Positions 4,157 to 56,612 of a stretch of 64,000 nucleotides of DNA are shown piece after piece; positions within the stretch are counted from its first letter, which is position 1; each line of letters begins with the position of its first letter. The notes under the pieces were generated by a model. The model saw nothing but the letters and a program-made list of their open reading frames with translations. It was not told the DNA's origin and did not search any database. Source of the stretch: Chara braunii (Eukaryota; Plantae; Charophyceae). The translations under genes and the position numbers were made by a program. The stretch lies in assembly GCA_003427395.1 (NCBI GenBank), contig BFEA01000015.1, positions 3,487,459 to 3,551,458 of the forward strand. Reading direction: 5' to 3'.

Positions 4157-7100
4157 ACAATGTCCAACCTCTGGTTGACCCAGTTAGACACAAGCAAAAC
4201 CCCCATCCTCCCGCCTTCCCCATGATACAAACCCTTTTCACAATCTGACTTCAGGCAAAACAACAAAAGCGAAATTGAACTTACGCATTCATCCCTTTAC
4301 TTAACTTTGAATTGTGTCCAGAAAGTCAAACTTAAAGTCAATATGGGATTCATGCGGTACACTCAGTCAAATTGTAGCAAGATATACAGATAGGGGTTAT
4401 AATTGGGTTTATAGAGGGAGATGAAGGTTTACCTCTCAGTCCCCTGCCCCCAAAACTCCTCCAGAGTTCGGTAGAGCTACCGCAAGTGGTGGGCAGACTC
4501 CCCACAGAGTCTTGATACGAGATTGCAGGTTGTAATCCTACCTGCCGCCTTCCTCTCGTAACCAAGATTAGACTTAGAGTAAGAAGGACAGAAGGAGGGG
4601 TTTCAGAGGCTCAAGATACAAAAGGGGGACAACTCAACTCTCAGGAGAGGGTCTTGAAACCTTCATGCGTTTAAGGGCCCCGCAATAATGGTCGAAACCC
4701 AGCAGCGTGGCTAAAGTCAAACCGTCGACTGGTAACTTTTTTTACTGCTTTGTACGGTGGGACACACGACACACCTGGCAGCAGCCAAGTCTATCATTCA
4801 TAGCTGGTTTGTTGCTGCTTCAATCCACATGGTTAAGCAACGTGCTAGTCAACACGTAAGTTTGCAACTCTTGTTTGGCTTCCTCGCCACTTCAACCGAC
4901 AGAATAAAGCACTGCCCCAGTTACACAGGTAAGTTCCTCCCCCGCCTCTTTATGCAGCATAACAAGCAGTCCAATAGTCTGCAAGTAAATCTTCAAGCCC
5001 TGCTACTGTCCTCACACAAGAGCGTCGACTAGGTAATTATTCGTTATTGTCTGTACTTTCCCCTCTCTTCTCTTTTCATCTCCTTCAAAACCTTTCCTGA
5101 CACTCCCTTCTCTCTGCGCGAAGCCCCCGCCGTCTACTGCACTGTGGCATTCATTCTAGCTAAACGAGAAAGCTCCTCCGGTAGAACACGAAAAATCGCA
5201 CTTTTCCATTCGTCTCCTGATGCCTAATGCCAACGATAGGAGGTCGAGCGGGGCATCGGCTGAAGCAGGTAACTTCATTCCCTCGTGGCTAACCTTTTGG
5301 CTGCTTCGACTCAGTCAATAGGTAAGTACACTCTCGTCGCCCTTTTTCTGGATCATCCGCTTCTCGTCTTCTCTCTTACGCTCGCTCCGGTCTACCAACA
5401 TACTTGGTCACCTGCTATGTTGGGCTCGTTCAAGCTTGAGGAACCGCAGGCCACGAATAGGAAGAAAAACCTCGGAGGAGACCACTGCCGAAACGATCAA
5501 AGATCGACGGGGAGGAGATCACTACCTCCGACGAGCAGCAATCGAACAGAACCGAACGAAAAAAATGAACTTCAATTTGGCTGAATGCACTCGTAAAATG
5601 AAAATAAACCCTTCTTTTACGTGCAGACCAGTGCACTGTTTCCTCTTTGAGGGCGACTCTCGCTGCTGAAATAGGGAAAATGCATTACGAATGATTGCCA
5701 CTCAAGGCATCAACAAGAGTTCGAACCCGGCGCTAAAAAGAGGGAAGGTGTATGCATGGAATCGTCGGCTATTTTCTCACCAGTCCGAGCTCGTAGGAAC
5801 CTCCCTCCAAAACATGAGCACATACTTTGTTTTCCAGTCGTTCGTGGAGAGAGATAATGAGGGGCTACTTTTATAAAAAAGGCAAGCAAAATTGGGATAA
5901 ATCTCCTACCAGAATGCGGATGGATGCATGGTTGCTTTCCTTTTCTTCTTGGGCGCAACTCTTGTTGTTTACTGTCCAAAATTTACCTACCAAACTCGAA
6001 ATCCGATTTCAGTATCAAATCCGCTACCCCTTAAAACACCCGGCATGAGTCCTCACTCATTCGTTCCCGTTCAAGAACGAGTGTGTCCCACAATCTTCGC
6101 CCTCGCTACCTTCGCTTCCGCCACCTCCTCACGCACTCCTTTTTCCTCCTATCTCCTTTCCTATTAATTTTCTTTTAAAACTAACTTCATATTCGAGCTC
6201 ACCAAGCCGCAAAACCCCGTATTATCACTTTCTCCCACAAAAATCTAATGAGAGACGAAGGAGTTACGGTTTCCGTCCTTCCGCCATACTCTGCTCCTCC
6301 TTATATTATGCCATCCAAGTCTTCGAATGCACCCTGACGCAATCCTCGCCCAAGTTCACCCCTTTTCTTCTCTGCGCCCACTGACCAGTCCCCTCATCTC
6401 CGTCCGACACAACACTACCGCAACTCTCGTCAGCATCGAAACTTTACAGCGCCCGACTCCCTTTATACTCACTTCTTTTAGCTGATCTGACTTCAAAACC
6501 GAGGTCGCCTGCCTAAAAAAAAAACATTCTCTATCCTTCGTTTGGCTTACTTTGTCGAGAATCGCACGATCTATCCGTCTCCCACTTCGCCACGACCACT
6601 CTCTCTTGCCTTCTTCCTTAAATGCACTCGACCCATCTCCCGACCGGATTCATCTTTTTCTTCCTTAGCATAGTCGTCCCCGTTGTTGTCATTACTCCCG
6701 TCGTACTGCACGACCGCACAGTAGTATAGGCGAGCCGGTTCAGCAGCATTGGTTGTCTTGTGGGAACTTCGCGGAGAGAGCTTGCTACTTGACAGTCAAA
6801 TTTAGTCACTCATTCAGCACTCCTAAGATGGGCGAGCATTGCGCTCGACGGCATCATGAGTTTTCTCACAGCGCCCCGGGCTTCTCTGCCTCAGTGCAGT
6901 CCTGCGTCTTTCTAGGTCGTGCCATACGACTAGCGCGTTGGTACTAAATGTGACTTCCAACATAATTTGCCCCCTCTTTCTGGCCTCGCCCTGTCCCAGG
7001 CCGTCCTGCAAAGTGGGTCGTACTAATCTTCTATATCGTCCCAATTTTTGATAGATGTCCCAAAGGACTGAAGCTTAACATATGGTCCGGGCTACGTTGA

Positions 7101-8250: not shown

Positions 8251-9311
8251 TTTGATATTTTCATACTGCCAAAAACTCTCACTTCAAAATTTTCATTTCT
8301 CAAGTTTCGGCCACCCGTTAACCGCTCACACACTCTCTACTCAAGTCAACTATTCAGTCAATGTAAACAGCAGACACAAACGCGACTCGCGCGGTGTACT
8401 CAATCTCTTAACCAAACTTGTTTTCTGTTATTTGCAAAAAAAACAAGGCGGATATCCTTGTAAGGGTGTTCGCACGGACAACGGTACTCAAGGTTACTGC
8501 TATTGATGGGCGGTGCATCTACTGTGTTTTGTTGGATTGTTGCGTGTGCATGGAGATGTGTCATGCTGTTCTTATGTAATTCGTCACAGTGTATAGCTAC
8601 TGCGCATGTTACCGGGCATGATCCTCGTACGTGTGGTGCCTCTTTGAACTTTGCTACGTTTTACTTACATTCTGGATATAGCACAATGGGTGTGCTTTAT
8701 TTCAACATTGTTCTTCTAGGCTGCAAAGAGGCGGGTCATTGTTACGATTTGAAGGATCATCATAAGGTCAACATTGCTCTTCTAGCCCACTATGATTTTC
8801 ATCACCATTGTGGGACCCTAAGGCGTATCAAGACTCCAAGGCTCTCTCATGCGAGTCTGAGCGCGCCTCCTTTATGTTTGAGTGCCTTATGACTCTCCCT
8901 CTGCCTTTTTTACTCTCAGTCTAGTCGAAAGGTTACTAGAGGGAGGCAGCAGGCGGGATTCGAAATCCGTAACCGTGCCAAGACTTTTATGGGAGGTTCG
9001 CCCCACCGATTGCGGAAGCTCTGCTGGAACCTATGCGAGGTTTATGGAGGCAGGGAACTCTCAGGTATAACTCCGTTTTCTTGTGTGGATTCACTAAGCT
9101 CATATCAATACGTTTCTTTGCGTTTGTTTGTTGAGTATGCATGCAACCTTATGACTTTTGTTTTCTTTTTTGAACTTAATCAGAATAAGTGGAAGCAATG
9201 CATGCATAAATTTCAGTTTTTTTTTACTGAAATTATATTGACGGATGAACCGGGGAAGGTGGTAGGAAGGTGGTTCTACATACGATTGACCACGTCAATC
9301 AAAGGTTCGAA

Positions 9312-10012
9312 ATTGTTTCTAAGTAGAATGACACAATGTTATGTTTTTTTTTTTATGTTTTATGAAGGACAAGGCACTGTTTCTAAGCAGAATGGTCTGG
9401 TTGCTATGGTGATTTCTAAGGGTTTTGCCTATCTGGCTTTTGGGCTCAAGCACTGTTTCTTAGCATAATGGTTTACTCTATCTGTTTCTTTTTTGGGTTT
9501 CTGACTGAAGTTTGACAAAATAGTCCAACTTCATATTTTTTGTGTGACTTAAGATAAGTTGAACATTGTTTCTAAGCTGAATGGTTCATTCTCTTGTTTT
9601 ATTATGGGGGAGAATTTCTTTGAAAAACTAAACATTGTTTTTAAAAATAATGGTTTAGCCTGAAGCTGCGCACACTTAAAGTACAAAAAAATATACATTA
9701 AAAATATTTATCTATATTTGCATATGAACACGCAGACAGACATTGCTTCTAAGTAAAATCGTTCAACTTAAGTCATATCACCAAAAAGATAAGAAAAGTC
9801 AAGAGTACAATTATAAGTAAATTGCGCAAGCTGAGCATTGTTTCTAACCAGAAAAGCTTGGTCTCATGCCCATATCAAAAGACAAGTCGAAGAATTACTT
9901 AAAGTTTGAATATTTAAACAGTTATGGACGATTATGCATTGTTTATAAGCAGAATGCAACTTGTTCATATATAACCTAAGGCATGCTAAGCATTGTTTAT
10001 AAGCAGAATGGT
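9312..10012 (+). repeat. Repeat-spacer array in copy B, 9 x ~22-nt CATTGTTTCTAAGCAGAATGGT
   Basis: Units at about 9312, 9375, 9451, 9564, 9633, 9741, 9836, 9937 and 9991. Confidence 0.88.
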
Positions 10013-10704
10013 ATAGTGTTATGCCATATGTAACATAGGAAAAAAGTTAATTATTTGAAGATCAATGAGTTATCTTATGTAAAACAATCTGAATTATTTG
10101 ATGAGAAACTTACATTGGTTGCTTTTGTTGCTTGGCTATAAGTTTAGTCTTGAGTCTAGTTGAGGTTGTCTCGTATAGGTAGTTGCTTTATATGTTCGTC
10201 ATGTGCTGAAGCCATAGGAGTTAGTTCAATTTCTGTTTTTCATAGCTAAGTTTATATTTGATTTTGTATAAAATTTGAAAAGGGGATTTTTGCTAAATGA
10301 CGTGCTGCCAATTGTTTTACAAATTCAATGAGTAAGTCAATTTTTTGTCTTTACAAATTCAACTTTTGTCTGAGTTTCGTATTTAGCTTAGTAAAAATTT
10401 GACAAACCTACTATGTTAGAGGAACTGTTGCCCAAAGTCTTGCTAAATTAGAGAGTTTGACATAATTTGGTCTTAAGAAGTCGAAATTATTTTTGAGACT
10501 TGTATTTAGCTTTCTACAAATTTTGGAAAGACACTTTTTATAGGGGGACAACTGTCAAAATTTCTACAAATCTATAGAATTAGTTAAGTTTTGTCCTGGT
10601 AAAGTTCAAGTTTTGTCTTTGAATTCATATATGACTTGGTATAAATATGAAAATCTACTTTTATAAAGGAGATACTGCCCAAATTCTTACTAATCCAGAG
10701 CGTT

Positions 10705-26198: not shown

Positions 26199-29100
26199 TT
26201 TTTTTTTTTTTTTTTTTTTTAAGGTTAATATTAATATTGAATGAACTGAGGCCAGGGTTCTCACAGTCTACCCGGGAGAAAGAATCTCTGGGAGCCTAAC
26301 CCAGTTTCGCTTTTTACGAGACCCAAAGGGACCCGAGGATACAAAGAGCAAAAAAAAAAAAAAACGAATGAACACAACAAAGCACTGACCAAAGGTAGTT
26401 TTCGGACCTACCAATCACTACTGTCCTCACCCCTTCGCTAAAAAAAAACTAGTATTAAATCTATTACCAGAAATTGACAAAAAGTAGCTGCCAAATCCAA
26501 GTTATACCTACCGCAAACGTGAAAGAAGAAAAAGAAATCTAGGCCAGGGCATTTATCCCTAAGCAATCAACATATCAATCTGTAGATAGTTCTCATAGCC
26601 ACTACCGGGGGACGGCCTAAAAGAGGCGGCCTAATATACCCCACCATCGTTATCGAGACCTAAAAAGCGGTCTGTAAATCTTATGAGATCAGCCAGTCAT
26701 CAAATTTCAAGTTTCCTTCTGCAGAGATTGAGACCCAGCCACTGTTTTTTGTCCAGGTCTGGGAGAACTAGAATCGTTTTTTTCGAGTCTGAGTGCAAGC
26801 CGCATGCCAATCTACCCGGACTGCTTGCCTTACCAGAGATTTAACCAGAGCTACCTGGCTTTGGAAGGAGACTGATTCCTGTTTAAAGGCTGCTTTATTG
26901 CGAGCCTTCCATAGAGCTTCCATCACCGCCCTACGACAGGCCAGGGCCTCATATGCCCACCCTGAGAAGAAGTCTACCTGTGTATGGGTCATACCGTATA
27001 AGGACAATTCCTGTGTCCAGAGAAAGTTGTCCCCTGCTACAGCCTTCCATCTCTCTTTCCACCATTCCCAAACTTGAAGCGAAAAAGGGCAAAATAGCCA
27101 GATGTGGGACGCAGATTCCCAGCCATAGTTGCAGCGCGAACACTGTTTGGTGATATACATGCCCTTTGAGGCTAGCCAAGTTGTTGAAGGTGTTACTAGG
27201 AGCACTTGAATCCAGATCAGACTTGCCTGCTTATGAGAAACCATCATTTTTAGTGTTTTCCACCTCCCAAACAGATCCATATTTCTTAAAATAAAACCCA
27301 GTTTTTTTGCCAGTCTCTTTGTCGCCGTCAGCACCGGCTGTTTCTTAACCTTCGCCCGTAGCAATTCAACGCCAATTTTCGAGCTATACAAAGCCACTGG
27401 GGTCGAGCTGTTAGGCTCTGATCCAGCATGCCAGCCATATAGTAATGGCTCAATTAAGATTGAGGAGGCATCTTTTGTAATAAGGGAAGTCGTTTCTTGT
27501 TTTGCATGAGACTTAAGGAGGACTCGACATTCTACTAAATCAATAGTTGAAGGAATAGTCCTATCCTCCCCTTTAGTAAGTGAGGACAGAGCAGAGGCCC
27601 TCGACTTCCTTTTCCAGACTTGTACCTTTATCCCGTGTGGTAAGTCTGGACCGATTACTCTTAGCATCTCCCGTGTGTCGTCTGTGTTTAAGAGTCAGGC
27701 CCTCAGGCCATGTTCCACTGTGCTAGGCAGCAGGGCCTTCAGTAAGCTAGAATTGCACTGAGCAATGTCTCATAGTTACTAACTATAGTCCGGAGTGTAC
27801 CCAATTTTTGTCGAAGCTCAGTATCTAGTACCCAAGTCCCCCGGTCTTCATCCCATATGTCCTTGATCTGCACAATCCCCTTCTTTATCCAAGCCTTGCC
27901 GAAGGATCGTGGGCCCCCATCAGCTTTTAGGGAAAAGTTTTCTGAAGTTCTAATGAAGGGAATTTCGAATAGTATTTGATTTAAAACTTTCCTTCTTGTT
28001 TTTGGCTGTCTGAGAACCTCTGGGAATAGTTTGTGTCAGGCGTATAGAATATTTCGCCAAATCTTCGAGTTGGGGTTTCTTGGGGCAAAGGATGGAATGA
28101 AGAGACAAAGCCATACATCTGCCCCTCTTGACAGACTCCATTCTTTACAGAGGATGTATTCAGCCAGGTGGACCCAAAGTTTAGACCGACTTCCAAAGGC
28201 TACAGATATAACCCATTTGCTAAGAAGAGCCAGGTTCTGGTGGACTGGGTCAATGAGGCCCAGACCACCCAGTGTCCTTGCCACAGCTATGGTCTCCCAG
28301 GCCACTTTCCATATGACACCCTGTTGGAGGACTGCTGCTGGTTTTCATATGTAGCGCGCAACCTCTCTCCTGATCCGGGAGTAGACACCCGCCCCCAACA
28401 GATGAACTGAGAGCGGGAACCATGAAAGGGAAAATGTTGCTGAGGTAAGTACTAGGGCTCGACCAAAGAGTGACAATTTGAAATTCCAAACCCAGCTGGT
28501 AATTTTTGTCGTAACCTTACCTGTAAGCATTGAATCTTGGGCTGCTGAACAGTCCGAAAGGGAGACCTGAACCCCCCAAAACCGGTTTGATGCATTAGCA
28601 GGGTAACATTTCAATCCCGAATCCACACTCAACTCTCGGAAGTAGGGAAGAAAATATATAGATTTATCCCAATTTATGAAAGCTTCAGATAACTCACAAT
28701 CCGTATCTAAAACCTTCCTAAGTTCCTGAAGGGATGACGGACTGTTGTCGCATGCTACAGTGAGATCATCTGCAATCGCCCCCCCTTTCCATTCTAATTC
28801 AGGGGTGAGCTTCAGACCAACGATGTTCATATTATTTCTAATATTGTCTAGTAAGACTTATAATTGAAGAACAAATAGGAGTGGGGCTAAGGGACAGCCC
28901 TGCCTTAGGGAGCGTGTTAACTGAAATTCCTCGGACAATCTACCATTTACCACCACAACCGATGCTGCAAACTTGTAGCTAGCGCCTACCCAGGTTCGAG
29001 GGCCAAAGCCCATCTTTTTTAAGGAGGTGTGGACAAAGCTTCACTCCGCTTTGTCGTAGGCCTTCTCCATATCGAGGAGGAGGACCGCAACATCCCTTTT

Positions 29101-32100
29101 TTCTTTACCAATAACTTTCAGAGCTTGGATGACCGAGATCATATTCTCAAAGAAGAAACGCCCTTTTACAAATGCCCCCTGTTCCCATTCGATCAGGGAG
29201 GGGAGGAGTTTGGTCAGGCGCAAGACTAATGTTTTGGCAAAAAGTTTGTAAGTGACGTTAAGCACTGAAATCAGTCTCCAGTTGCGGACATCTATTTCCC
29301 CCCCCTTTTTGTACATGAGGGAGATCATGCCCTGTGTGAAGCCCTTCGGGAGACGGCCCGAATGGAGGGTCTGATTGTAGATATCACATAGGAAAGGCGC
29401 AACAGTCTCCCACGTGGCCAGAAACAGTTCTACTGGCAGACCATCTAAGCCGGGGCACTTGCCCTTAGCCATCGCCTTAGCTGCACCCAAAATTTCAAAG
29501 ATCTCCATGGGTTTGTCCAATTCAAGGGCAGCATTGTGAGAAATAGACTTATTAGAGCAGTCCCAAAAGGGTGACGATTTAATCATGTCCCGAACAATCG
29601 AAGGGGTGAGAAAATTCCCTGATCAATGATTTAGATTTGCGAAGCAGAAGAGAACGAAAAGTTAACTTTGTCATTTTATCATAGTCGATAATTCCTCTAA
29701 GCCTAAGGAATTTGATCCATTCCCCTTGTTTCCTTATGTCTAAGGCTTCTAGGCGGACAAGGGCATCCCTTCGGATACCGGACCAGTGAAAATTTGAAAA
29801 AGAATCTTCACCCATTTGAGACCCAGTCTGGCTTATGATTTTAACCAAGGATTTTTCTTACCAATTTTTCTTTGCTGCCTTCATCCTAGAGAAGGTGATC
29901 AGACCCTGTCTGATAATGAAAATTTATGTATTCGCCCACTGAAGATAATAAGAGAATAGGACCTTTGCCTCCAACCATTTCGTCAAGTGAGCATTGATCC
30001 ATTCTATGATACAAGGATCCTTCAACAGGTTAGCATTTAATCTGAATGGAGGGCAATGGCGGCCGACCGTGTCCTTGGGAAGGATGTCTAATGGAACTGG
30101 ATAGTGGTCGGACATGGAGGTCGGTACCACATCCCACCACATGCTTCGGTCCCACGAGGCATCTCCGACTAGAAATAAATCCAATTTTTTTCTTGGGGCC
30201 GGGGAGGTTGGAGGGGGGGGGGGGGGGGGGCAAACCAAGTAAATCCATTCTCTTGTGGATGAAAGGTTCTGAAAGCATCGGAAAAGGACTGCGTTTCCAA
30301 AAAGGAGGAAAGCATTATCGAGTCATCGCGCAAGGGGGGCGTACCCAATGTGTCTAAACCCGGATTCAATACTGCATTCCAGTCCCCACAGATAATGATG
30401 TTTTCCGCATCTGGTAAGCAGCCGGGTAGGTTTGCGGAAAATTACTGACGACCATTATAATCCACAGGGGCATAAACAGTCATAATAGGTCATTCCTCTG
30501 ATTCCAGCGATAATTTAAGCCAAGCCCATCGACCTTCATTATCATGGTACTGATATAGTATCACGATATCTAGATCCTACGTAGCACCATGTTCGCGTTC
30601 GGAGGCGAACGCGAACATGTTCGCCCGAACGCGAACAAGCGCCCAAAACCCTCCGAACGCAAACATAAAAAATATTTAAAAAAAAAACAAAAAGTTCTCA
30701 GAAAAATATGAAAAAACTCTATGTTATGTAAAATAACAATACAAGCAACTTTTGCCTTGCAGTCATGTTCAAATTCGTAGCCAATCATGATTTAAAAATC
30801 ACAAACCGAAAATATATATATATATATATTTTTTTACGAAAAAAAAAAATGTTCGCGAGCTGTTTGCGCGAACGTGTGAACACGTTCGTGCGAACATGAA
30901 GGGGCGCGAACGCGTTTGCCGTGCTACGCAGTCTAGATCCTTATTCACTAGGAGGACAACTCTACCTCTAGTCCCCTCCGCAGGGGACCAGACCTGTGGA
31001 CCCTCCCACCACCATTGATAGAGGCAATCGTACTGTGATCTAATTTGGTCTCTTGCAGGCAGGCAATCTGCACATTATGTGAATGGATTCAGTTCTTAAA
31101 TCGCGCTTTTTTGTATTTCTTATTGGAGTCTCCAAAACCACGCACATTCCAAATCAAGAGTCTAATTCTACTTGGTAGAACCATCCCCTGAACCTCTATC
31201 GCGTGAGATTTGGATGCGCGATGCTGACTTCTTTCGAATCACAGATCCCCTACCTCTCGGGAGGGTGGGTTTGCGACCCCGACCTGAAGGGGCAGGGTGA
31301 GATGTGAATGCAAGGTTTGTTGTGAATCTTTCTGACGCAAAGCCATCCGCTGCCTCCGTGTGGTGAAGCCACTCCGCCACCTCCTGGGCAGATAGGCCTT
31401 TTGGAAGACTGATGTCTCTCAGCGTGTCAGAAATCTTGTCCAAGAAGCGGGCTAAGGGAAGCCAGTAAATGTGCCGAGAGCGCAGTTTTTCCAGGTTCGT
31501 TGGGCTCGCCTGGAGGGCTAGGCAGACTATGTGGAGGACTGTCTTACTGCCTTGCGTATTGGTCGATATGTGACGGTCACGCTTAGGAGTCTGCAAAATG
31601 GTGCAAACTCCAGAGTTTCGCAAAACCTGTTTCTTTGTGGTCGAAAGCCATAAGGAATCAGGGGGTGGGCCTGTGGTGGGGACCGCCGGAAGTGACAAAG
31701 CTTCATCTTTGTCCATGTTTGTAAGCACCATGGGGTCATGGGGCGAGGCCGTGATCACCAAGGGAATGAGAAATTCTTTAAGATTGTCTGATTTCTTATC
31801 CTTTGCTGACAAAGTGTGCATCGGATGGGAAAAATTCAAGGATTTATTTGTATCGGGGGGTTATCACTGATACGCCTTGGCCCTGTTCTCCGTACTTTTG
31901 TGGGGGGGGGGGGGGGGGGGGGGGGGGTTGGTTATTGGACGTTGAAGGTACCTCCTTGATCTCAGAGACCGGAGTTCCTTTTTTGGATGTGCACTGCTTC
32001 TTCGCAGGGGAAGCCGCAGAGAGAGGGGCTTATCTGAACCAGAAGAAGCAATGGGTACAGAGCGATTGGACTTAGCAATTTTTAACGGATAGAGGTTTTT

Positions 32101-33850
32101 CACACCAAGATTTGAATCATAGTCAGCCTCATCCTGAGAGGATGTATAGGCCTCATTTACAAACACTCGGGAAGGGGAGAGGATCACAAGGCCCAGGGGA
32201 GGGTCAAAACCATCGTGTAATACGATTTTATTACCTTTTACAATAAATTTGTGTTCCGGTTGATCCTCCATGGCCTCGTTGTCATCCTCACGTTTACGTT
32301 TTTCCCGTCCAGGGGTGAGTCGATCCTCATCCATCTTATCAGAGAGGACGACCAGGGATTTCCCTAAACCCTTAGCTATATTACGCATCCCCTTCCCACC
32401 CTTCTCCACCCTTGGATCCACCACTTTCTTACCCTTCTCCTTGTCCATTTCTGGTTTCCCCGTATTTGACTTTTTTTCTCCTTTCTGCTTATCAACATAT
32501 GCGGCATCCATACCAGTTTTCCCCTTTCTACCACCTTTCTCTTCCCTCTTGTCTATCTCCTGCCTGTCTTTGTCCCCTCCCTCCTTCTGCTGTTTTCCTC
32601 CATCCTTCCCACCATCCTTCATGTTCCCTCCTTTCTCGCCTCTTCCCCCCTGGCCGGCCTTCTTTGCCGCCTCTTTCCCTCCCTTTCCCTTAACTCTTTT
32701 TGTTCGATTGGCAAAATTCATCCCCTTTTGAATGGAAGTGTCATCTACAGGCAGAGCACCACGGGGTCTCTGCACATACCACTTCCAGTTCAACATAGCC
32801 ATCCAAACCTTGGTCGATCACGAGGTATCTCTTGTACCGACGCCTGGCGGCTGAATCCAGGTCACACCTTACATTCAAGAGATATGGATCCAATTTGTCC
32901 CTAAATACCAAGTATTCCTTGATTATATTGCTATCGTAAGCATCACATACTGCTCCTGGGAGAAGGGGGAGGACCCCAATAGGGACATGCTGATACCTAA
33001 TCCAAAAAAAACGGTGTTTCGCAACCTCCCTCCACTCGCAGAGCTCGTTTTCTGCCATCCATAGTCTGAACGAGATCGTGTATTTGACCTTGTCAAGTTC
33101 AATACCTGTTTGAGTCATTTTGAGCATCCACGTCGCCATCTCACTGGTGGGGGCAATATATGTAATCAAATTCCGACCCTCGTTAAGAAACAAGCCCCTC
33201 TTCGCAGGCGAGGCGATTTGGGTCGAGCTGGCCCAACCATCCTCATAGATCTGAACTAATCGTTTTTAACATCTATGGGAACTGACGCGGATTCTTCTCC
33301 AAAAAGGATGGTGACCTCATGCTCACGAAGCCATTCAGACTGGATTTCGTAGAGCTCCGGGTTCACAGCAACCTGTGACGAACCAATTTTTGTTCCGCAC
33401 GATTTTCTGTGCGATGACAATGAGGGGTCCTAAGATGGGAAGGTCGGGCCAATTACGGGAGATCAGGATTGAGGGGAAATTGCATCGGTGTCCTCGCTTC
33501 TTCGTCTTTTTGCATCGCTTCTTTTCGGATGGCTAGGTTAAGGGCCGGGCAAATCCCGAGATGACCGGTTGAGTGGCTGTCGCGCTGACAAAGGCGCGAT
33601 TGATAATGTTTGACGTCGCTTCTTTCTTGTTCTGTTGTCCGGTTTTAGGCGCGGAAATCGCACGGGAAGTTTTGCTTTTTTTTTAATTTCTTTTTCGAAT
33701 CTTATCGGCCCTCGATGGCTCTTGGAATTTTGGACTTTCTCTTCGGAATTTGCATTTTATTAAAGTTCTTTTTGCATTAGCTAGGAATTTAGGAATTTAG
33801 GATTTATTTTGTCGCGCGCTGCCTTGTTGCTCGTGTGCTTCTTTTTGCGG
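26199..33850 (-). mobile_element. Decayed L1/Tx1-like non-LTR retrotransposon (ORF1 + APE-RT ORF2) with poly(A) tail
   Basis: Minus-strand peptides: APE motifs IWNVRG (~31150), CLQETKL and SDHYPV; RT motifs KCPGLDGLP, WRLISVLNVTYK, DMEKAYD, LRQGCPLAPLLF and IADD; GGLGL; zinc finger CSRC...ESASHIWLFC. ORF1 fragments lie at 31168-33400. Poly(T) on + at 26199-26220. Many stops and frameshifts. The 5' boundary is approximate. Confidence 0.9.
30577..30931. mobile_element. hAT-like MITE inserted in the LINE endonuclease domain
   Basis: Perfect 8-bp TSD TCTAGATC at 30569-30576 and 30932-30939. TIR ctacgtagcac / gtgctacgcag. Confidence 0.92.
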
Positions 33851-34680: not shown

Positions 34681-34787
34681 GTCCCTCGGGACATCTGTTA
34701 AAATTGGGACGATACAGAGAAGAGTAGCATGGCCCCGGTGCGAGACCGACGCGTATAAAATCAGGAGGTGCCCGACCTTTGCTTTTT
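34681..34787 (+). pseudogene. U6: U6 snRNA-like copy, 3' half diverged
   Basis: gtccctcgggacatctgttaaaattgggacgatACAGAGAagagtAGCatggcccc matches the 5' half of plant U6. Ends in T-runs. No TATA box at -30. Confidence 0.85.
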
Positions 34788-37687
34788 GCTGGTGAGCACG
34801 ACGAGGTCGATGCTATACTGCTAACAGTGCACTACGACTGAAATAGNTGAGTGCAGACGAGAGGGAACGGGGAAGGGAGTTGGCGAAGAGGACGAGAGGG
34901 GAAGGCAGGGGGGATACTGCCTGTTGACTGAGCTGGACCTTCGTATTTGCTACAAGGTGGTTGATGAAGGGAGTGAAGGGATCTGGCCGAGGCTCCGAGC
35001 TAAGTACACTGGAAGGTTGGCGGGTGTGTGCGCCAACGGGGAGCGAACACGAAGAGGGACCTGGACGCACATCCACACCAGATACAGTCAGTTCTGCTAT
35101 CAGTAGGTAGGCGGGAGCGAGGGTCATGGATGGGAGGACGGCGTACCGCTATAAGATTAGCTACGGGCCTGGCCGCAACTAAAAGGCGCTGCCAATAGCC
35201 AGCTGCACTGAGTGTATCCGCCCATGTTCTGGCGGAGGAATCATTCTCGAGGTGTGTCGCCGTGGAACCACTGAAAGAGAAAGAGAGGGGGAGTGAAGCG
35301 CCGGCCAGAGAGGGATGCGAGGCAGGCAAGAGTGAGTGCAGGTAAGGAGCGATGCACAGCTAGGCAGCGGAGCTGGGCCACAAGCAAGCCGATGGCACGG
35401 GAGTAAACCCGGTCTAGGGGAGGCACTGAGTGCGTGCGGGGGGAGAGCGGTGCAGGCAGCGGTGCGCAGGTAGCAAAGTGGGCACATAGCGGATTGGATG
35501 GGTGAGGACAGGCGGTGCCAGGCAGCGGCGGGGAAGGTGGCTGTGTAGGAGAGCAGACCGAACTTGGGCCCGAAGTGGCTCGAAATGCATACAGGAGAAG
35601 CCGACGGGGTGGCTGAGAAGGCCGGGTGAACCTGGACAGAATGTCGCGTTGGGTGCAATGGAGGTGGGCATGGAGGAGAAACGCAAGTGACGGTGGTGGG
35701 AGGAAAAGTGAATTCCTCATTCGTTTCTCGACGGTTTTGGTCGAGAGAAAGTGCTACTCTATGGTTGGGGATAAGGCAAACCCAGATCTAACGACAGAAC
35801 TAATGGAAGGTGAGTAGGATAGAGGGTCGGAGCAAAAAGAGCCGCGCGGCGCTATGGCGGAGAGAGGAGAAGATTGGGAGTAAAATTGCCATAACTTGGT
35901 CACTTCGTGGCCGTTTTCAGCGATGTAAGATACTAATCCGGGGTTTTTGGCCATTGCGAATCCAATGGCAGTGTCAGATTTCGTAATGGAGTAACAGATT
36001 TGGTGGGACAAGGTGTGGGAACTGCGCAATTGCTATGAAATTCTAGCGGGAGTTTTATTCTCACTTTTTATTTTACTTTGTGTTTTTTTTTTAGGACATA
36101 TATATATATATATATATACATATGTATATATATATATAGTTTTTTTTTTTATCTTCTTTTCTCCTGTTTTAGTAAAAGGATTTGGTATGGAGGAAAACCG
36201 CTAGCACGTCTTGACGGTCGGGCGCTACTTGTGTCATTTGTTTGAAGGTGTTGTTCTCCCTCCTGATTCCTCTCTTCAAGAATTGTCTACACGGTCGAGA
36301 CCTGCTTCACCTTGATTGGACCTCCGACCCGACCGAGGTGTTTCTGATCTCGTGGTGGAGTTAGTAAGAGAGAGAGAGAGAGAGAAAGAGAGGGAGAGAG
36401 TCCTACCTACCTACATGAATCTGGCCCTGATTCAACAAAAGGGTCATCCACACCTAGAGGACGACAACGAGCAGGTGCTTGAATACTAGTAGAAGACTCG
36501 GCCCCTCTTCACCCACTCGGTACGCAGTTGTCTGTCACTGATCAGGTGTTGGCTCTCCCTGCTTACAGTAATTGAGAGTTTAGTTGATTTTTATTACGGC
36601 TATGAAAAGCTGCACATGGGTTGTTGCTATAGTCAGTAGTCATATACTTGCATCAAAAATGCACGTCTGAGTATGGGCATTTTGCACAGTGAAAAGTGTT
36701 GGTGGCTCACTAAAATCAGCTACTATTTACGTAATGGTTTGTCTGCCAACCAAGGAGAAAGGTTGTGGTATTACAGGTCTATCTATTGACTGGCAGACCG
36801 TCATTTCATCAGCCGGTGCCGCAAGAAGACCAGCTGCGGAGACTGTTGAATTTACGGCTGACTGAAGAGCTGATCAACCTGTTGTTTCTGAGTAAAGAGG
36901 GGGCAAGCCACAGGGATGAAAACCCGGCCGCTGGCTAAGACTCTGCCGATCGTATCATGCGACGCAGCTGTAGGCGGGCATAAAGGAGTAGGCCGGTCAG
37001 GGGGCGGTGCACTGTTCATCCTATTAGACGAAGAAGAGTGGGAGGGAGTGTGTGCAGGCTGTTTGCCGTCGATTGGATGGGTGACTGAGGCGGGCTGAAT
37101 TGGGTACAGGGGTATACCCGCACCTTGCCTTTGGAACTGGCTTGCGGAGGTAGAACGAGCAAGTACGGGTTGAACCTATGGGGGAGCTGTTGGCCAAACT
37201 ACAGCGGTCTTAGCGGAACATGAAACCTCATTGTACACTTACTAAGTCTCGTTGGAGTGTGTTTCTGCCTATGAGGTATACTCCTTGCCTCGGTGTATCA
37301 ATATCATAGTAAGGGTCTCCCTCGCTGCAACTATAAAGGAAAAGGAAATCTTCACAAGGGAGTGTATCTTCCCACATTCTAGCGGGAAGTTCATCCTCAT
37401 TTGGCATGGTTGAGGAGGAACGGATTGGGCGAAGACCGCTGCTGAGGACTACCACTGAGACTGGGCGAGGCTGCGGTTGTGGGTGGCGGCTGCCGCGACT
37501 GCTAACCTCCACTGTGTATTGCCACTGTACCTGAGGGTCAGGGCATAGTGTTAGGCAACTGTCGTTGGACTTGGAGGAGGGGTTGGACTGAGGGAGGGAG
37601 CTTGGTGCTGCGAGTGGGAGGATCGTCAGGGGGGGGGGAGCTACTTCGACAATTTGACTTTGTTGTTCAAGCTGTCAGTTGGCTGCC

Positions 37688-37940
37688 ATTGCGGGGCCCT
37701 CAGGCGACTGAAGATAACGAGGCCCTCTCATGCGAGTCTGAGTGCACCCCCCTTGGATTTGAGAGTCTCAAACCTACCTCTTTCTGCCCTTCGCACTCTA
37801 AGTCTAGTCCATTGGTTACGAGAGGAAGGCGGCAGGCGGGATTGCAACCCGTGGGACCGCATCAAGGTTCTGTGGGAAGTCAGCCCACCGATTGCGGAAG
37901 CTCTGCCGGAACCTAGGCGAGGTTCTGGAGGCAGGGAACC
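37688..37940 (+). ncRNA. Putative structured RNA block 1 (homologues 8808-9062 +, 4441-4690 -)
   Basis: Hairpins are conserved with compensatory changes across three copies: gcggg-attgcaa-cccgt (C) vs gtagg-attacaa-cctgc (A); gaacct/aggttc (C) vs gaactc/gagttt (A); gtggg/cccac. Confidence 0.55.
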
Positions 37941-38204
37941 ATCAAGTAATCTCTTTCTATCTGTATACCCCACTACGTCCATGTTTGCTTATCCCCTATA
38001 GCTTGACTGATGTATGCATGCCTGTCCCTATGATTTTTTGATTCTATTCATGACTTAACCAGACAAAGTAAAGGAAGGCATGTATAATGTCAGTTTCAAC
38101 TTCTTTGCCTGATTGAAAGCAGATTGTGGAATTGCATCTGGGGGAAGGGTGGGAGAAAGACAGTATTGCATGAAGTTTGACTGGGTCAACCAAAGGCTGG
38201 GCCA

Positions 38205-38914
38205 GTTCCATAAGTTTGGGAAGGCCCAGTGCTGTGTTTTATTTTGTATTGCCTGGAGAACCAGACAAATCCATAAGTTTGGGTGGTCTGGTTGCTCTGA
38301 CTTGTGAGGGTTGAATGTGATTGTTTTTTCAGACGCAGTCGAATCCATAAGTTTGGGTAGTCTGACGACCTTGTTTATTTGGGGGGTTTTACAGTTTCTT
38401 TGGTTTCTGAACGAGGAAATGAGCATGTCCCATAAGTTTGTGTGACTCTACCTCTTCCTGCTTTGGTCTAATAGAAATAAACCAGGCTGAGGACCAAGAC
38501 ATGTTCCATAAGTTTGGGTGGTCTTGGTTCAACACCTCGCACATGCTGGAACCGGAAGGCTCTAACTTTGATATACTTTACGATTATACTATCTATGAAC
38601 AGGCTAATCAGGCTGGGTTCCATAAGTTTGGGTGACCTGACTATAGCTTATCACCAACTGAAGAGAGTACTTAACTAAGAATAAACTTGTGGTACGAAGG
38701 GGCAGGCTGAGTCTTGAGCTGAAGATGATCGGCTCAGCTATATGCTACCTCAAAAGACTAAGTACAAACAATTATATAAACCTTAGATACTTAAACAGTT
38801 CAGGGCGACTAGGATGGCCTAATCATATGCCCAAAGAAGAGAAAAGTTGTTGTGCCCTGTGTTTGTGTATACTTCTTGGTTGGGCTAGACACGTTCTATA
38901 AGTTTGGGTGGTCT
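38205..38914 (+). repeat. Repeat-spacer array, 7 x ~21-nt TTCCATAAGTTTGGGTGGTCT
   Basis: Units at about 38205, 38268, 38343, 38427, 38503, 38617 and 38893, separated by non-repetitive spacers. Confidence 0.9.
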
Positions 38915-39229
38915 AGCCTTATGCCCTAGGTAAGCTGGGTATAAGGGATAAATCATTGAAAGACTACGAGCTATTGGTTGCTAAGGTAACTTGGGAATGG
39001 AGAGAGAGTGCATGTTTGTGGTTTGGCCTGCATGTGACTGAGTGATGTCACTTCTTAGTTTGAACTTGAATTTGATAGGTAGTTGCTGTAGTTGCTCGCC
39101 ACGTGCTAGAGTCGTAGGAGTTAGAGTCATTTCCTGCATTTTCTGGGCTCGTTTTTTTTACTTAGATCCATTTCTGCAGTTTTTGGATCCTTTATTTATA
39201 CTTGGTCTTGTATAAATATTGGTAAACCA

Positions 39230-39780
39230 CTTTCTCTACGGGAAGCGATGCCGAAATTTCTACAAAATCAAGGTGTTAGTCAAAACTTTGACTCTTTCAG
39301 GCTCCAGACTTGATGACTTCTTTGACTAGTAAGAATCTGGGGAGCCTCCTTTCCTAAAGGAGGTGCTGCCCAAATTTTTACTAATTCAGGGAGTTAGCCA
39401 AAATTGGGCCCTGAAGGGTCAAAGTCATTGTCAGGTCCTAGAACTTGGCCTTGTATAAATCTTAGACTAGCACTTTCCCCACGGGAAGCGCTGCCGAAAT
39501 TTCTACAAAGCTAAGAAGTTGGTTGAGGTTTTGTCGTGACAGGGCCTAGACGTTATGTCTAAGTTCAAGTCTAACTTAGTATAGATCTGGGGGACCTTCC
39601 TCTCTGAAGGAAATGCTACCCACATTTTTGCTAGGTCAGGGAGTTAGACAAATTTTGACTTTTTGGAATCCAAAGATTTGACTTTTGGACTAGTATTATT
39701 TTCTGCGATGTCACTGTTCCTACGGGAAGCGCTGCCGAAATTTTCCAAAGTTAGAGGAGTTAGCCTATATTTGGACAAGT
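39230..39780 (+). repeat. ~120-bp tandem array with alternating subunits (GGGAAGCGCTGCCGAAATTT / GGAGRTGCTGCCCAAATTT); homologues at 500-910 and 1205-1760 (-) and 10270-10700 (+)
   Basis: Core motif at about 39238, 39358, 39481, 39608 and 39722. Confidence 0.85.
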
Positions 39781-41319
39781 GGCGACCTATGTAGGGGAGG
39801 CTATGGCGAGGTCCCCCTTGCGCTGAGTGCTATCTAGAGGTGGACCTAGACTTGGTTAGATACGACGGCTCGAGTAGGGTTAGGATGTGGAGATCACTCT
39901 CCCTGAGCGTGTAGACTTAGCTTGAGATTGGTCTGGCTTGTGTCACAAGTCTCTTGGATCAAGTCGCTTCAGGACGGGGGCTAGATTCAGCTTTGATCCT
40001 GCAAGGATCACCTTCTGTTATCACTGATAACAGGTCGGTTGCCGGCTCGTCGGTTTACGACTCAACCTCAACCCACTCTCCTTACTGAGCCCTGGTGATT
40101 TTCGCTGTTTTGTTAAGGTTTCATTCGGACTTTTATTGAATGGCCATTTAACAAAGGTACTGAGTATTTACTTAAGGTTGGTTGGCTGGTGGTTGGGGCT
40201 TGCATAGCTGAGGCGAAGGGTATGAGCATGGAGACTAGTTGGAGTTGACTTTGTGTAGTGTATGAACTTCTGCTTGACTCTTTGATGTGATTGCAGGTAT
40301 GTTCCGTGACTTGGATTATTGGATTGGACTGCCTTGCGATCTTACATATGTGCATGAGGAGACCCACTGTGATTGTGAGATGTGATCGTCACATGTTTAT
40401 TCCCCTGTATACATATATACATACATATATGCACGTATGTACGTGTATTTGTGTGGGGTGTTAGCGTGGCCTGAAGGGTTGCGTACTAAGGACCTCATCC
40501 AGGGTTGGAATGAATAGAAGGGAGGGAATGACCCCCCTATTTATATATACGCTTCTAAAGAAATTGTGGTCGGACGTTAGCCCTGTGCCTAGAATACGAT
40601 GGTCCTCGCCCAGGACGACCCAGGCCCCAGGACTAACTCTGAAAAGGTTCACTTCTGATAAAAGTCGAAGGTACTTTCCTCGTTGGGATTTATTTTGGTG
40701 GAACGATAAAGTTCCGGGCGGAAGGGTCAGCGTGTCGCTGGTGATGCGCCAGACAACTCACCACCGCTCAAAATCCCTTCCTGCCCAAGGGACCGTCTTA
40801 CCCCGCACCCGTTGGGACACCTCAGGATGCAGAAGGTGGTAAGGCCCTCAGGCCGGTTTTGCGTCCGTTAAAGGGTTACCTCCCCTTAGCGCGCACTTCA
40901 GCCGACGCCTGAGCATCAGAAGCAACCGCATGGCTCAGAATAGGCCATTCGGGTATGGGCACCACATAATGCGCCGTCATCGCAGTTACTCACGTAGCGC
41001 TGCATAGTGAATTGGTATGCGTAGATCCTACGTTCGAGCGATCTTATACTAAACCTCGCGTATGGCAATTACCGACTTCCACTGCGCAAAGTTATGGGTT
41101 TGATACAAAAGGGACTAGGAGTGTGTCTCGTTGTACGTCCTTCGTGTCGTTCAGTACCCGTGTGCATGTGTGCGCGTGCTTTACTTTTGTGTACCTTGTA
41201 GTGGTGTGTGCGTGGCGTGTGGGATACGTCCTAGTCGACCGGCGACGAGCCGCGCTTGGGACCTCAGCCCCCCAAGGCGTCGGTTCGCGTGCGGGTTCGT
41301 TAGAGGCGTAATACTGCGT

Positions 41320-41650
41320 GTACCCCCTATGCTACAGCGAACGAGAAACGCCCTCGGCTGGTCCACTTCTGCGATTGCAGCTGATCAACTTTCGTATTGT
41401 GGACTGGTAGCTCGGCGGGGATACGCCCACCGGACGGAGGTGACAACTCCCGTAAGGTGGAGGTAAGTCGTGCCTCGCGTAGGCCCTATCCTGTCGTAGG
41501 GGCTCGCGAGGGGTATGGCTGGCGCGCCCGGCCGGAGCGGATTACGGAAGCTCCATGAATGTATTGCAACAAGGGTTGTATCCTGACTCCTGCGTGACGC
41601 AGCCGGGAGGGTCCCGCGCTACCTCTGAGTGGTGCGGGACCGATGCGCTC
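41320..41650 (+). ncRNA. Putative structured RNA block 2 (homologue 13420-13712 +)
   Basis: Stems are retained between B and C despite sequence and length change, e.g. ggtcccgcgctac-ctctga-gtggtgcgggacc vs ggtccc-cctgc-gggacc; ccctat-cctgtc-gtaggg vs cccctat-cctgtc-gtgggg. Confidence 0.5.
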
Positions 41651-44105
41651 GACAGTGCCCTTGTAACTGTATTTTTCTTCTTGAGCTTCGTCCTTCCTGC
41701 CCTCTCTCTTCCTTGATGTGACTGTCTGGCCCGCAGGCTGCATGATCGGATCGATTCGTGGAGAGTGGCTACGTCCCCCACGCCGCGGTCTGGCCATGCA
41801 GAACGTAGGCGATCCCTTCCCTTCTCTCTTCCTAAGTCCTTGCAATTTTGTGTTCTTCGCGCATGCATGCATGCTATAAATTCCACATGCGCTATTAGAT
41901 AGCTCTCTTAACCAGTTGTTGGAAGCTCGGGGCAGTGCGATCATTGAGGGTCGGCTCACGAGCGAAGTAAGAGGTGAATTGAAGTGGAAGTCGGGCGACC
42001 CGACGAGTTGGTGCCGAATGCGCGGGGTTGACGCGTGGGGCTACGACGGACTGTAGCGTGCGGGCGAACTTGACGGGTGGAGGAGGACTACTTGGGGTGA
42101 CGACTTCGTGGGTTGGTGCGTGACGACGGACTGTCCGCATCAGAGAGAGAGAGAGAGAGGAAGAAAGAGTTGAGGTTTATGGACGTGGATTTGCAATTTT
42201 CTCTGTCTTTCCCTTCCAACTTTTGTATATAAATTTTAATCTCGGTTTCGGGTGATTCGCCCGTTTTTTTTGCTCTCGGCATTTTTGTCTCGACTTTGGG
42301 CTGCGTCCATCTATAATTAGTTGTAATCCTTCCTACTAAGTGTTTGATTGTATGGATGCTGCTTTGCGATAAATGAATGATATGTTTGTCGTTTTTTGTC
42401 TAGTCATCATCATTGCTTGTCACTTTGATCCGCTGTTCTGATGTTGTTGCGATGGCTGATGTGTAATGACACCTTGCATGCTCGGAAGTGATTGCTTGTG
42501 GGATCACTTAGTGATTAGATGATTGGGTAGTTGTCCATGACACGTGGCAATTTTGCATGAAGAGTTAAACTCTCACCTTTTTTGGGTACAAGCGAACACC
42601 CCACGGGGATACGTGTAAGCGCGATCTAATCTGCGCAGCCTACACGTATCCATGCGCAGCAATTCATGATCATTAACGAACCTGGCACCTCGGGTAGGCG
42701 GGGGAAATTTTCCTTCTTTCACGCACCTACGCTAATAGGAATTTCTGATACCATATCGGGAAATCCCCTTGTCAGTTAGATGCGTGCGGAAAGTTTCCAC
42801 TATGCCGCAATGACAAAATGACGTACACATGAGACTCAGAGTACTTCGAACCTTGGGTAAGAGAATATCTTAGGCAGAGACGCCCATAATTTCCCTGCTT
42901 AACCGAGAACCGATTGTGCCCCAGAGAGTTTTGCTATGCTGTAACGAGCGATCCAAGGTGTCCCGATTACCCAACTACATATAACTCGCAATACTTCATA
43001 TCCCCCGGCTTTGTTGTTGTCACTACGAATTTTCCTCCCTTCCGTCTCCTCCTCCCGTATCACCAACTCACAGTGGTACCGTGGAATTCCATCGCCCCGT
43101 ATTGGCCCCGCACGCCGTGCAGAAACTGCAGACGACGCGGCCACCGCCGAATTCCTGGAACTACGAAACTTAACCATAACACGCGACGACAGACGCCACG
43201 TGTCTGCACCCGAAGGTCCCACTCATAGGAATCGCAACCCTCACAAACGGGCCTCTCCCGAACCGTCGTCACCAAAACAGACGGATCGGACGGCCCTTGA
43301 GGCACCACGCATGTCATCCACCTTATGACTGCGCAACATCGACCGCCATCAGACCGGAGGTAACCCGCCCCCTAGCTCTATTGCATCTATGCCCCTGGAC
43401 CCGTGCCACAGGAGATCTCAGTTCTGACCTAGGACTCCAACCCCACTTCCCTAAAAATCCTTGGCACACCCCTTTTCGCACTTCCAGGCCCACATCCCAC
43501 TCCGATCAGGAAGTCGCGCCGGGCTTGAGGTTGGGCGTCACAAACCTTCACGAGTCATCTCCCTCCTCTACTTTGGACGATGCCAAGTGAGGGGGGAGAA
43601 TTCCGTCTAGGTAACATTGTGAAATGATTTCCCGGATACGTTGTTTTTCATCCGATGGGATGGATCGAGGGGGCGCAGAGGCCGCCATGCGGAATGTCAC
43701 GACTTAAGACTAACAAAGGCCAGTCTTATACTACGTGAAAACCTATTAGTACCGTTATCCTAATTTCAATGATACTGGAGAAGAAGCTTCCAATAAATAT
43801 GGATAACCTATAATTTCATAACTCTTTTCTCTTTTCCCATACTACCCCAGGTCGAAGAGGGCGGAAAGGGGGGAGAATGTTATACCTGCAATTGGCTCAG
43901 ATCCGATCCACGCCTTCTCTCTCCTTTGGTCAAAGCCTGGGTCAACTGACATAAAAACTCGCCTGGAAATCACCGATTCTTCAGCAACACTCATTTAGGC
44001 GGCTAAGTGTGGGGTAAAATAACCCCGTTCCTTGATCCGAAATTGCACTTTAGCTAATCTCCATGGACAAAATTTTCAAGCAGATGGCCAAAGGCCCTTG
44101 CGCTA

Positions 44106-45480: not shown

Positions 45481-45537
45481 ACACACCTGATGAGTCGGTG
45501 AAAGTCCGACGAAACAGTCTGTGTGGCACAGTCGTGC
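45481..45537 (+). ncRNA. Type I hammerhead ribozyme motif between (CA)n tracts
   Basis: cac-CTGATGA-gtcgg-tgaaagt-ccgac-GAAA-c...GTC-gtg: complete catalytic core, perfect 5-bp stem II and a candidate GUC site at 45531-45533. Confidence 0.75.

Positions 45538-54751: not shown

Positions 54752-54782
<31 letters not shown>

Positions 54783-56570: not shown

Positions 56571-56612
<42 letters not shown>

What the first reader, a model, noticed from the sequence alone, without database searches (positions are those of the whole stretch)
37688..37940. Structured RNA block 1 with compensatory substitutions, immediately upstream of the array
Seen, C/B/A comparison: hairpin gcggg-attgcaa-cccgt / gcggga-ttcgaaa-tccgt / gtagg-attacaa-cctgc; hairpin gtggg-aagtcag-cccac / atggg-aggttcgc-cccac / gtggg-gagtctg-cccac; terminal stem ctctgcc-ggaacct-aggcg-aggttct-gga-ggcaggg (C) vs ctctacc-gaactc-tggag-gagttt-tgg-ggcaggg (A). 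There is also a long-range pyrimidine/purine pairing (cctacctcttt ... agaggaagg). Many G-U pairs favour the + strand of C as the folding strand. Inference: a novel ~250-nt cis-acting RNA, ribozyme or scaffold.
Basis: partly seen in the sequence, partly recalled or inferred. Interest (0 to 1): 0.78.

Follow-up and report, generated by a model that had tools for sequence, protein, structure and literature searches.

The report
Branched RNA fold in algal retrotransposon
A 250-base stretch stays conserved across diverged copies of an abundant repeat, likely an algal retrotransposon, and is predicted to fold into a branched RNA that would likely serve as a protein docking site steering the element's own transcript, a kind of signal known from retroviruses but matching no catalogued RNA family.

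Summary
The block is real. It occurs three times in the window and in two further contigs, at 68-87% pairwise identity against 52-66% just downstream; the upstream flanks do not align. It is not protein-coding and has no Rfam match. The 3' 155 nt (37782-37936) give a consensus fold with a four-way and a three-way junction (shuffle z -3.6). The 5' part is not significant, and copy C alone folds no better than shuffles. Only hairpin P7 shows clean covariation; two other double changes fall on CpG sites, and five sequences are too few for proof. The + strand is favoured by inherited G-U pairs, the neighbouring hairpin array and stranded poly(A) reads. Those reads come from other copies and run through both ends, so this is not a discrete small RNA. 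On the - strand an ATG and a splice-acceptor-like site bracket the block exactly. Best reading: a cis-acting export or 3'-end signal of a likely LTR retrotransposon, working like HTLV-1 RxRE or MusD MTE (0.35). Rivals: antisense leader exon (0.25) and DNA promoter (0.2). A ribozyme is unsupported. No gag or pol was found beside any of the three window copies.

The parts
37688..37939 (+). Conserved block, copy C
   Evidence: Alignment of 5 copies; contig loose ends cluster at 37679 and 37939
37693..37749 (+). Domain I: imperfect 12-pair stem (37693-37705 with 37736-37749); weakly supported
   Evidence: Pair table; shuffle z only -1.1 for the 5' part
37782..37936 (+). Domain II: P1 (37782-89/37929-36) closes a four-way junction with P2 (37796-99/37821-24), P3 (37830-35/37903-08) and P7; P3 closes a three-way junction with P4 and P5 (37857-61/37893-97), which carries P6
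   Evidence: Consensus fold recovers P1-P7 at -48.7 kcal/mol; z -3.6, 0 of 60 shuffles as low
37836..37852 (+).
37872..37888 (+).
37909..37925 (+). P7 hairpin, the best-supported helix: 3 of 6 pairs change on both sides, none at CpG
   Evidence: consensus pair probabilities 0.97-1.0
37228..37689 (-). Decayed reading frame starting at an ATG at the block's left edge; one stop at codon 5, then 148 open codons
   Evidence: ATG at or within 3 nt of this place in 5 of 5 copies; no homologue found
37939..37941 (-). Position of a splice-acceptor-like CAG after a pyrimidine tract; present in A, L001 and read consensus, lost in C and B
37946..37950 (+). Splice-donor-like GTA, in 4 of 4 copies that reach it; reads pass through it unspliced
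37961..37970 (+). Position of a TATA-like motif, clear in A and L001, decayed in C, absent in B
   Evidence: part of it also in the X14 read consensus
38190..38920 (+). Hairpin array 1: seven hairpins with variable stems and a constant six-base loop (TAAGTT on +)
39200..39780 (.). Array 2: repeats of about 120 nt
   Evidence: (family D15)
41236..41655 (.). Most abundant part of the laid stretch, ending in a possible LTR end (…CA); shared with copy B
8805..9067 (+). Copy B of the block
4430..4686 (-). Copy A of the block

Best explanation
The block is a conserved, non-coding segment of a high-copy repeat, likely an LTR retrotransposon, whose + strand RNA is predicted to fold into a branched domain that likely acts as a protein docking site for nuclear export or 3'-end processing of the element's own transcript. 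Shown: conservation above its flanks, lack of a shared reading frame, a consensus fold better than shuffles for 37782-37936, and + strand poly(A) RNA from family members that runs through the block and drops sharply just after it. Inferred: that the repeat is an LTR retrotransposon, that the + strand is its genomic RNA, that the block lies near the 3' end of that RNA (in or next to the 3' LTR), and that a host or element protein binds the junctions. The same DNA likely doubles as the leader of an antisense accessory gene that starts at its left edge, as in retroviral LTRs.
For: Identity is 68-87% in the block (10 pairs) against 52-66% in the next 300 nt (6 pairs), and the upstream flanks do not align. 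Summed contig depth in DNA run X1 is 190,801 over 37683-37869 against 20-2,300 over 36187-37682. Domain II has alifold z -3.6. In stems, 0 of 26 variable columns carry a transversion, against 18 of 35 in unpaired columns (Fisher p 6e-6). 93.4% of 227 cells are paired, and 8 of 46 pairs change on both sides (7 of 500 shuffles reach this). Strand: consensus energy is -60.8 on + against -46.2 on -. Four domain II pairs are G-U in most copies and none is A-C in most. The array stems have 27 G-U against 6 A-C cells in 21 hairpins, where composition predicts 1.5:1. RNA: + strand depth over the block is 44-97 in X15 and 25-42 in X13, against 0-2.3 on the other strand, and falls below 1 in the next two bins. 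The strand was calibrated on an 18S-like piece. Known analogues: RxRE is 255 nt in U3/R of the 3' LTR and positions the poly(A) signal (PMC3434621); the MusD MTE lies next to the 3' LTR (PMC4588558).
Against: No gag, pol or integrase was found beside any window copy (0 Pfam hits in 24 read-through frames), and no paired LTR, PBS or target-site duplication could be assigned, so class and orientation are inferred. There are only five sequences, and the structure was derived from them. My two nulls gave p 0.06 and 0.013 for 6 compensatory pairs of 39, and 2 of those 6 are at CpG sites. The - strand fold is nearly as significant (z -3.2). Isolated one-off changes are balanced: 6 G-U against 7 A-C. 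In single copies P4, P5 and P6 have pair probabilities of at most 0.3 on +. In X14 the - strand RNA equals the + strand RNA over the block (106-154 against 80-145) and exceeds it over the array. The three raw-read libraries come from one study. Reads at 80% likeness are drawn to conserved places and may come from a few loci. No test of export or of a poly(A) site was possible.
Confidence: 0.35

Rival explanations
1. The block is the spliced 5' leader of a - strand mRNA. An intron holding array 1 is removed, the exon starts at the acceptor at 37939, and the fold controls translation from the ATG at 37689 (IRES-like or shunting).
For: The ATG is at the left edge in 5 of 5 copies and opens 148 codons in C. 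An acceptor-like CAG lies at the right edge in A, L001 and read consensus. A donor-like GTAAGT on the - strand just beyond array 1 is in A, B and the X14 consensus. - strand RNA is abundant in X14. The - strand fold has z -3.2.
Against: No spliced joint was listed in the three raw-read libraries or X5. Acceptor and donor are lost in C. The G-U pattern favours +. No AUG depletion on either strand. The frame has no homologue, and in B the - strand frames are full of stops.
Confidence: 0.25
2. The block is conserved as DNA, a two-way promoter or enhancer between a + strand TATA box and the - strand ATG; the pairing is partly incidental and partly produced by transition-rich decay.
For: A TATA-like motif lies about 25 nt beyond the block in A and L001. 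Two short motifs each occur twice in the block. 67 of 89 two-state columns are transitions, which makes any double change look compensatory. Copy C alone folds no better than shuffles. Grande's antisense gene has its own upstream promoter (PMC7264820).
Against: P7 has three coupled non-CpG changes. Transversions avoid stems. The consensus fold beats 60 of 60 shuffles. The TATA-like motif is absent in B.
Confidence: 0.2
3. The block is the core of the packaging or dimerisation signal, working with the same-loop hairpin array to select genomic RNA for Gag.
For: It sits directly beside array 1 and is favoured to fold on the same strand. A donor-like site lies between them, as in retroviral leaders (order recalled, not from a call).
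Against: + strand RNA depth drops steeply between block and array, and X5 contigs extend up to 1,690 nt upstream of the block, which does not look like a 5' leader. No PBS was found next to it. I did not test the loops for a dimer-forming palindrome.
Confidence: 0.12
4. The block is a new self-cleaving ribozyme or an independently transcribed small RNA.
For: It is compact and multi-branched with invariant junction bases. A hammerhead-like motif occurs elsewhere in the window, so ribozymes are plausible in this genome's repeats.
Against: No Rfam ribozyme, tRNA or snRNA match. No place where many reads begin or end, and 60-69% of laid raw reads run on beyond the matching part. At 250 nt it is larger than the small self-cleaving classes (recalled).
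Confidence: 0.06

Closest known systems
HTLV-1 Rex response element (RxRE) (PMC3434621, passages read; antisense hbz in PMC10186651, passages read)
   Same: About 250 nt, multi-stem, in a retroelement; here also near a likely RNA 3' end, with splice-like sites and a candidate antisense gene on the same stretch.
   Different: No sequence or Rfam match. No Rex-like protein identified. Position in an LTR is inferred, not shown. The host is an alga-like eukaryote, not a mammal.
MusD transport element (MTE) and IAP RTE of mouse LTR retrotransposons (PMC4588558, first of two parts read; PMC12786077, passages read)
   Same: Structured non-coding element of an LTR retrotransposon; a possible long-range pairing (37724-29 with 37820-25) would be a tertiary contact like those in MTE.
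   Different: Smaller than MTE (about 400 nt), different fold, no functional test. PMC12786077 states that export of LTR retrotransposon RNA has not been studied directly in plants.
Retand/Grande pol-3'LTR region (PMC11963269, parts 1-3 of 5 read; PMC7264820, passages read)
   Same: Order of antisense ORF, then tandem arrays, then a possible LTR; hypervariable accessory region.
   Different: Retand was found only in eudicots and Liliopsida and nearly always carries TRP28; no TRP28 or RT here. The parts I read describe no conserved 250-nt RNA fold between ORF and arrays.

Membership tests
Retroelement RNA export elements (RxRE, MTE, RTE) | Conserved multi-stem RNA of a few hundred nt | tested here: met
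   Met for domain II only, on five sequences
Retroelement RNA export elements (RxRE, MTE, RTE) | Lies on the genomic RNA strand, in or next to the 3' LTR | tested here: inconclusive
   + strand favoured; no gag-pol or paired LTR to fix orientation
Retroelement RNA export elements (RxRE, MTE, RTE) | Sequence or structure homology to a catalogued element | tested here: not met
   No Rfam match near a gathering score in C, L001 or L003
Retroelement RNA export elements (RxRE, MTE, RTE) | Promotes export of unspliced RNA through a bound protein | not testable with these tools
   Needs a reporter assay
LTR retrotransposon (host element) | High copy number, dispersed | tested here: met
   Three copies in 64 kb, two further contigs, very high summed contig depth
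LTR retrotransposon (host element) | Paired LTRs, PBS, PPT, target-site duplication, gag-pol | tested here: inconclusive
   One possible LTR end at 41655; nothing else assignable
Retand lineage | Retand-type RT and antisense TRP28 ORF | tested here: not met
   0 Pfam hits in the flanking frames; copies are decayed, so this lowers membership only
Known small ribozymes (hammerhead, HDV-like, twister, twister-sister, pistol, hatchet, hairpin) | Catalytic core matching the family model | tested here: not met
   No such family among Rfam hits up to E 10 on the block; I did not check which of these classes Rfam 15 holds
Known small ribozymes (hammerhead, HDV-like, twister, twister-sister, pistol, hatchet, hairpin) | Self-cleavage | not testable with these tools
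   No read-end pile-up, a weak test in fragmented libraries
tRNA or tRNA-derived SINE head | Cloverleaf or tRNA model match | tested here: not met
   ARAGORN 0 genes in the window; no Rfam tRNA hit
Protein-coding sequence | Shared reading frame and 3-nt periodicity of change | tested here: not met
   Frames shift between copies; periodicity P 0.68

The most novel reading that the evidence does not exclude
An algal retrotransposon carries a Rex/RxRE-like circuit on one stretch of DNA: the + strand folds into an export or 3'-end element, and the - strand is the spliced leader of an accessory gene that begins at the element's edge and whose protein binds that fold or the same-loop hairpins next to it.
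Probability: 0.12. Interest if true: 0.8.

Novelty: new variant of a known kind. Interest (0 to 1): 0.47.

Why it matters
How plant and algal LTR retrotransposons get unspliced RNA out of the nucleus has not been studied directly (PMC12786077, passage read), and the function of their antisense accessory genes and 3' arrays is open (PMC11963269). A conserved, bounded 250-nt candidate, with a 155-nt core present in many natural variants, gives a defined target for covariation analysis, probing and reporter tests. If it proves to be only a promoter, the interest is modest.

Tried and rejected
Wider distribution: exact patterns found 0 loci in viral contigs. Loose patterns gave 37 prokaryotic and 45 viral loci; with L002 these are chance, since my covariance model hit only L001 and L003 among 85 loci and only the 3 known copies in the window. 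No whole genome is held for this window, and L001 and L003 lie in no searchable record, so depth stayed at five sequences. Protein searches: the C frame gave 0 hits among 433 candidates and one spurious Calx-beta repeat hit. The L001 frame gave 0 of 1,144 and a B frame 0 of 47. No Atlas result was obtained. Resemblances recalled from memory (group I intron P, Q, R and S elements, RNase P/MRP, U1 or U1A sites, twister-sister, tRNA arms, ENE) were dropped: they were not kept across copies or had no Rfam support. Reading the left-edge motif as a PBS was rejected because the bases after it vary between copies. A possible target-site duplication for B falls inside a tandem repeat and was rejected. 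AUG depletion did not orient the element. The run search listed no holder on record as RNA, which is no evidence either way. One search used a mis-registered structure string; its counts are void and replaced. The domain I rows were off by one and are replaced.

Full report
Setting. The window is eukaryotic and repeat-rich: a LINE on the - strand at about 26.8-30.3 kb and RelA/SpoT-type exons at 55-58 kb, two U6-like matches, and many microsatellites. Earlier notes on this genome name the alga Chara; I did not test that. No whole genome is held, so all comparative work rests on five copies and on read laying.

The observation. The block occurs three times: C 37688-37939 (+), B 8805-9067 (+) and A 4430-4686 (-). 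A scan of metagenome contigs returned three loci. L001 and L003 are true copies and L002 is chance. Pairwise identity in the block is 68-87% (10 pairs) against 52-66% in the next 300 nt (6 pairs). The upstream flanks of the five copies share nothing at DNA or protein level. In DNA run X1 the summed contig depth is 190,801 over 37683-37869, 20-2,300 over 36187-37682 and 20,000-80,000 over array 1, with loose ends at 37679 and 37939. This is no copy number, but it shows a sharply bounded, shared island in a very abundant family. The block is not coding: frames shift between copies and variable columns show no 3-nt period (P 0.68). Rfam has no match near a gathering score in C, L001 or L003, and ARAGORN finds nothing.

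Structure. Copy C alone is unremarkable (171 of 200 shuffles fold as well), as expected for a decayed copy. After re-spacing gaps at one junction, the consensus fold of 37780-37938 recovers seven helices. P1 closes a four-way junction with P2, P3 and P7, and P3 closes a three-way junction with P4 and P5-P6. Consensus pair probabilities are 0.85-1.0 for P1, P2, P4, P6 and P7, about 0.65 for P3 and about 0.5 for P5. Against column shuffles domain II scores z -3.6 on + and -3.2 on - (0 of 60 as low on each strand); the 5' part scores only -1.1. In stems, 0 of 26 variable columns carry a transversion, against 18 of 35 unpaired columns, though the helices were chosen on these same sequences. On the unedited alignment, with domain I and without P5, 93.4% of 227 cells pair and 8 of 46 pairs change on both sides; 7 of 500 shuffles reach that count. 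My own nulls for 6 compensatory pairs of 39 gave p 0.059 and 0.013. Two of the six (P3, P4) lie on CpG sites in both arms and can arise by methyl-C decay. The three in P7 and one at the end of P1 do not. In single copies P4, P5 and P6 are improbable (at most 0.3 on +), and another register of P4 is as good or better in B, L001 and L003. So P7 is firm, P1 and P3 are likely, and the interior of P3 is open.

Strand. The consensus energy is -60.8 on + against -46.2 on -. Four domain II pairs are G-U in most copies and none is A-C in most, but they are at or near helix ends, and one-off changes are balanced (6 G-U, 7 A-C). Array 1 gives a cleaner test with strand-neutral registers: 27 G-U against 6 A-C cells among 252 in 21 hairpins, where composition predicts 1.5:1; 13 of the 27 sit at one inherited position. 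Three stranded oligo-dT libraries of one study were laid (6-13% of each run), plus contigs of X5. Strand was calibrated on rRNA reads that lay on an 18S-like piece on the + strand at 36607-36730. + strand RNA depth over the block is 44, 85 and 97 in X15 and 25, 37 and 42 in X13, against 0-2.3 for the other strand. It falls below 1 in the next two bins and stays at or under 7.2 over the arrays. In X14 both strands are present: + RNA falls from 145 to 6 and 9 after the block, while - RNA goes from 128 to 15 and 72. Most reads are under 90% alike to C (311 of 433 in X15), so they come from other copies, perhaps few. They run on past both edges, no read ends pile up, and no splice joint at the edges is listed. 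One X5 contig extends 1,690 nt upstream of the block. The block is thus an internal part of longer + strand poly(A) RNAs that likely end or diverge soon after it.

Both edges carry signals. On the - strand an ATG lies at the left edge in all five copies (shifted 3 nt in A) and opens 148 codons in C after one early stop. No homologue was found. An acceptor-like CAG lies at the right edge in A, L001 and read consensus, and a donor-like GTAAGT just beyond array 1 in A, B and the X14 consensus. On the + strand a donor-like GTA follows at 37946 in 4 of 4 copies, and a TATA-like motif follows about 25 nt after the block in A and L001. No gag, pol or integrase remnant was found in 24 read-through frames flanking the three window copies. 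One possible LTR end lies at 41655.

Mechanism. I favour a cis-acting element on the element's own + strand RNA, near its 3' end, that docks a protein for export or 3'-end processing (0.35). This is how RxRE works: 255 nt in U3/R, binding Rex and positioning the poly(A) signal (PMC3434621, passages), in an LTR that also drives a spliced antisense gene (PMC10186651, passages). The MusD MTE lies beside the 3' LTR (PMC4588558, first of two parts). The order antisense ORF, arrays, LTR recalls Retand elements (PMC11963269, parts 1-3 of 5; PMC7264820, passages), but membership fails on TRP28 and RT. Rivals are the antisense leader exon (0.25), a DNA promoter with incidental pairing (0.2), a packaging core (0.12) and a ribozyme or free RNA (0.06). 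The first two can hold together with the best reading.

Novelty. Five searches of the held library (listings only) showed no description of this element; most subscription papers are not held and no supplements were opened. PMC12786077 (passages) says export of plant LTR retrotransposon RNA has not been studied directly. I rate it a new variant of a known kind, interest 0.47: a real, bounded, uncatalogued RNA candidate with thin covariation and an untested function.

Noticed in passing
window 36607-36730 (+): Decayed piece matching positions 1-120 of eukaryotic 18S rRNA (Rfam E 0.19, below the gathering score; rRNA-like reads lay on it) inside the variable flank of copy C. It may be a captured rRNA fragment; if captured during reverse transcription it would also point to + as the genomic strand.
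   Followed up: partly
window 45481-45525 (+), similar stretch at 54666-54782: Hammerhead-like core after a (CA)n run; Rfam Hammerhead_3 at E 0.52, below the gathering score.
   Followed up: partly
window 7885-9468 (+): One frame across copy B has 4 stops against 23-36 in the other five frames. It is not shared by C or A, and its last 191 codons have no homologue. Unexplained.
   Followed up: partly
window 41236-41655 and 13423-13716: Second conserved, hairpin-rich segment with about four times the block's summed DNA depth; B's copy is followed by a run of about 25 A. Not analysed for covariation.
   Followed up: no
window 9300-10020 (+): Copy B's hairpin array has a different constant loop from C, A and L001 while the block is shared, suggesting subfamily-specific docking sites beside a common core.
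   Followed up: partly
window 37688-37694, 37891-37897 and 37718-37729, 37863-37871: Two short motifs each occur twice within the block, in opposite order in the 5' and 3' domains.
   Followed up: no
window 34681-34782 and 58430-58538 (+): Two U6 snRNA-like matches above the gathering score, probably pseudogenes or retrocopies.
   Followed up: no
window 26771-33265 (-): Decayed LINE with endonuclease, RT and zf-RVT matches and a probable ORF1 upstream.
   Followed up: no
window 54939-57998 (+): Exons of a RelA/SpoT-type host gene (HD_4 and RelA_SpoT matches), with tandem duplications inside.
   Followed up: no
window 42742-42753 (-): Close match to an initiator-tRNA primer binding motif (motif recalled) about 1.1 kb beyond the possible LTR end, with no matching LTR beside it.
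   Followed up: no
window 248-1670: About 700 nt of copy A's array 2 region is duplicated in tandem at 80% identity; an assembly gap at about 2352-3246 splits copy A.
   Followed up: no
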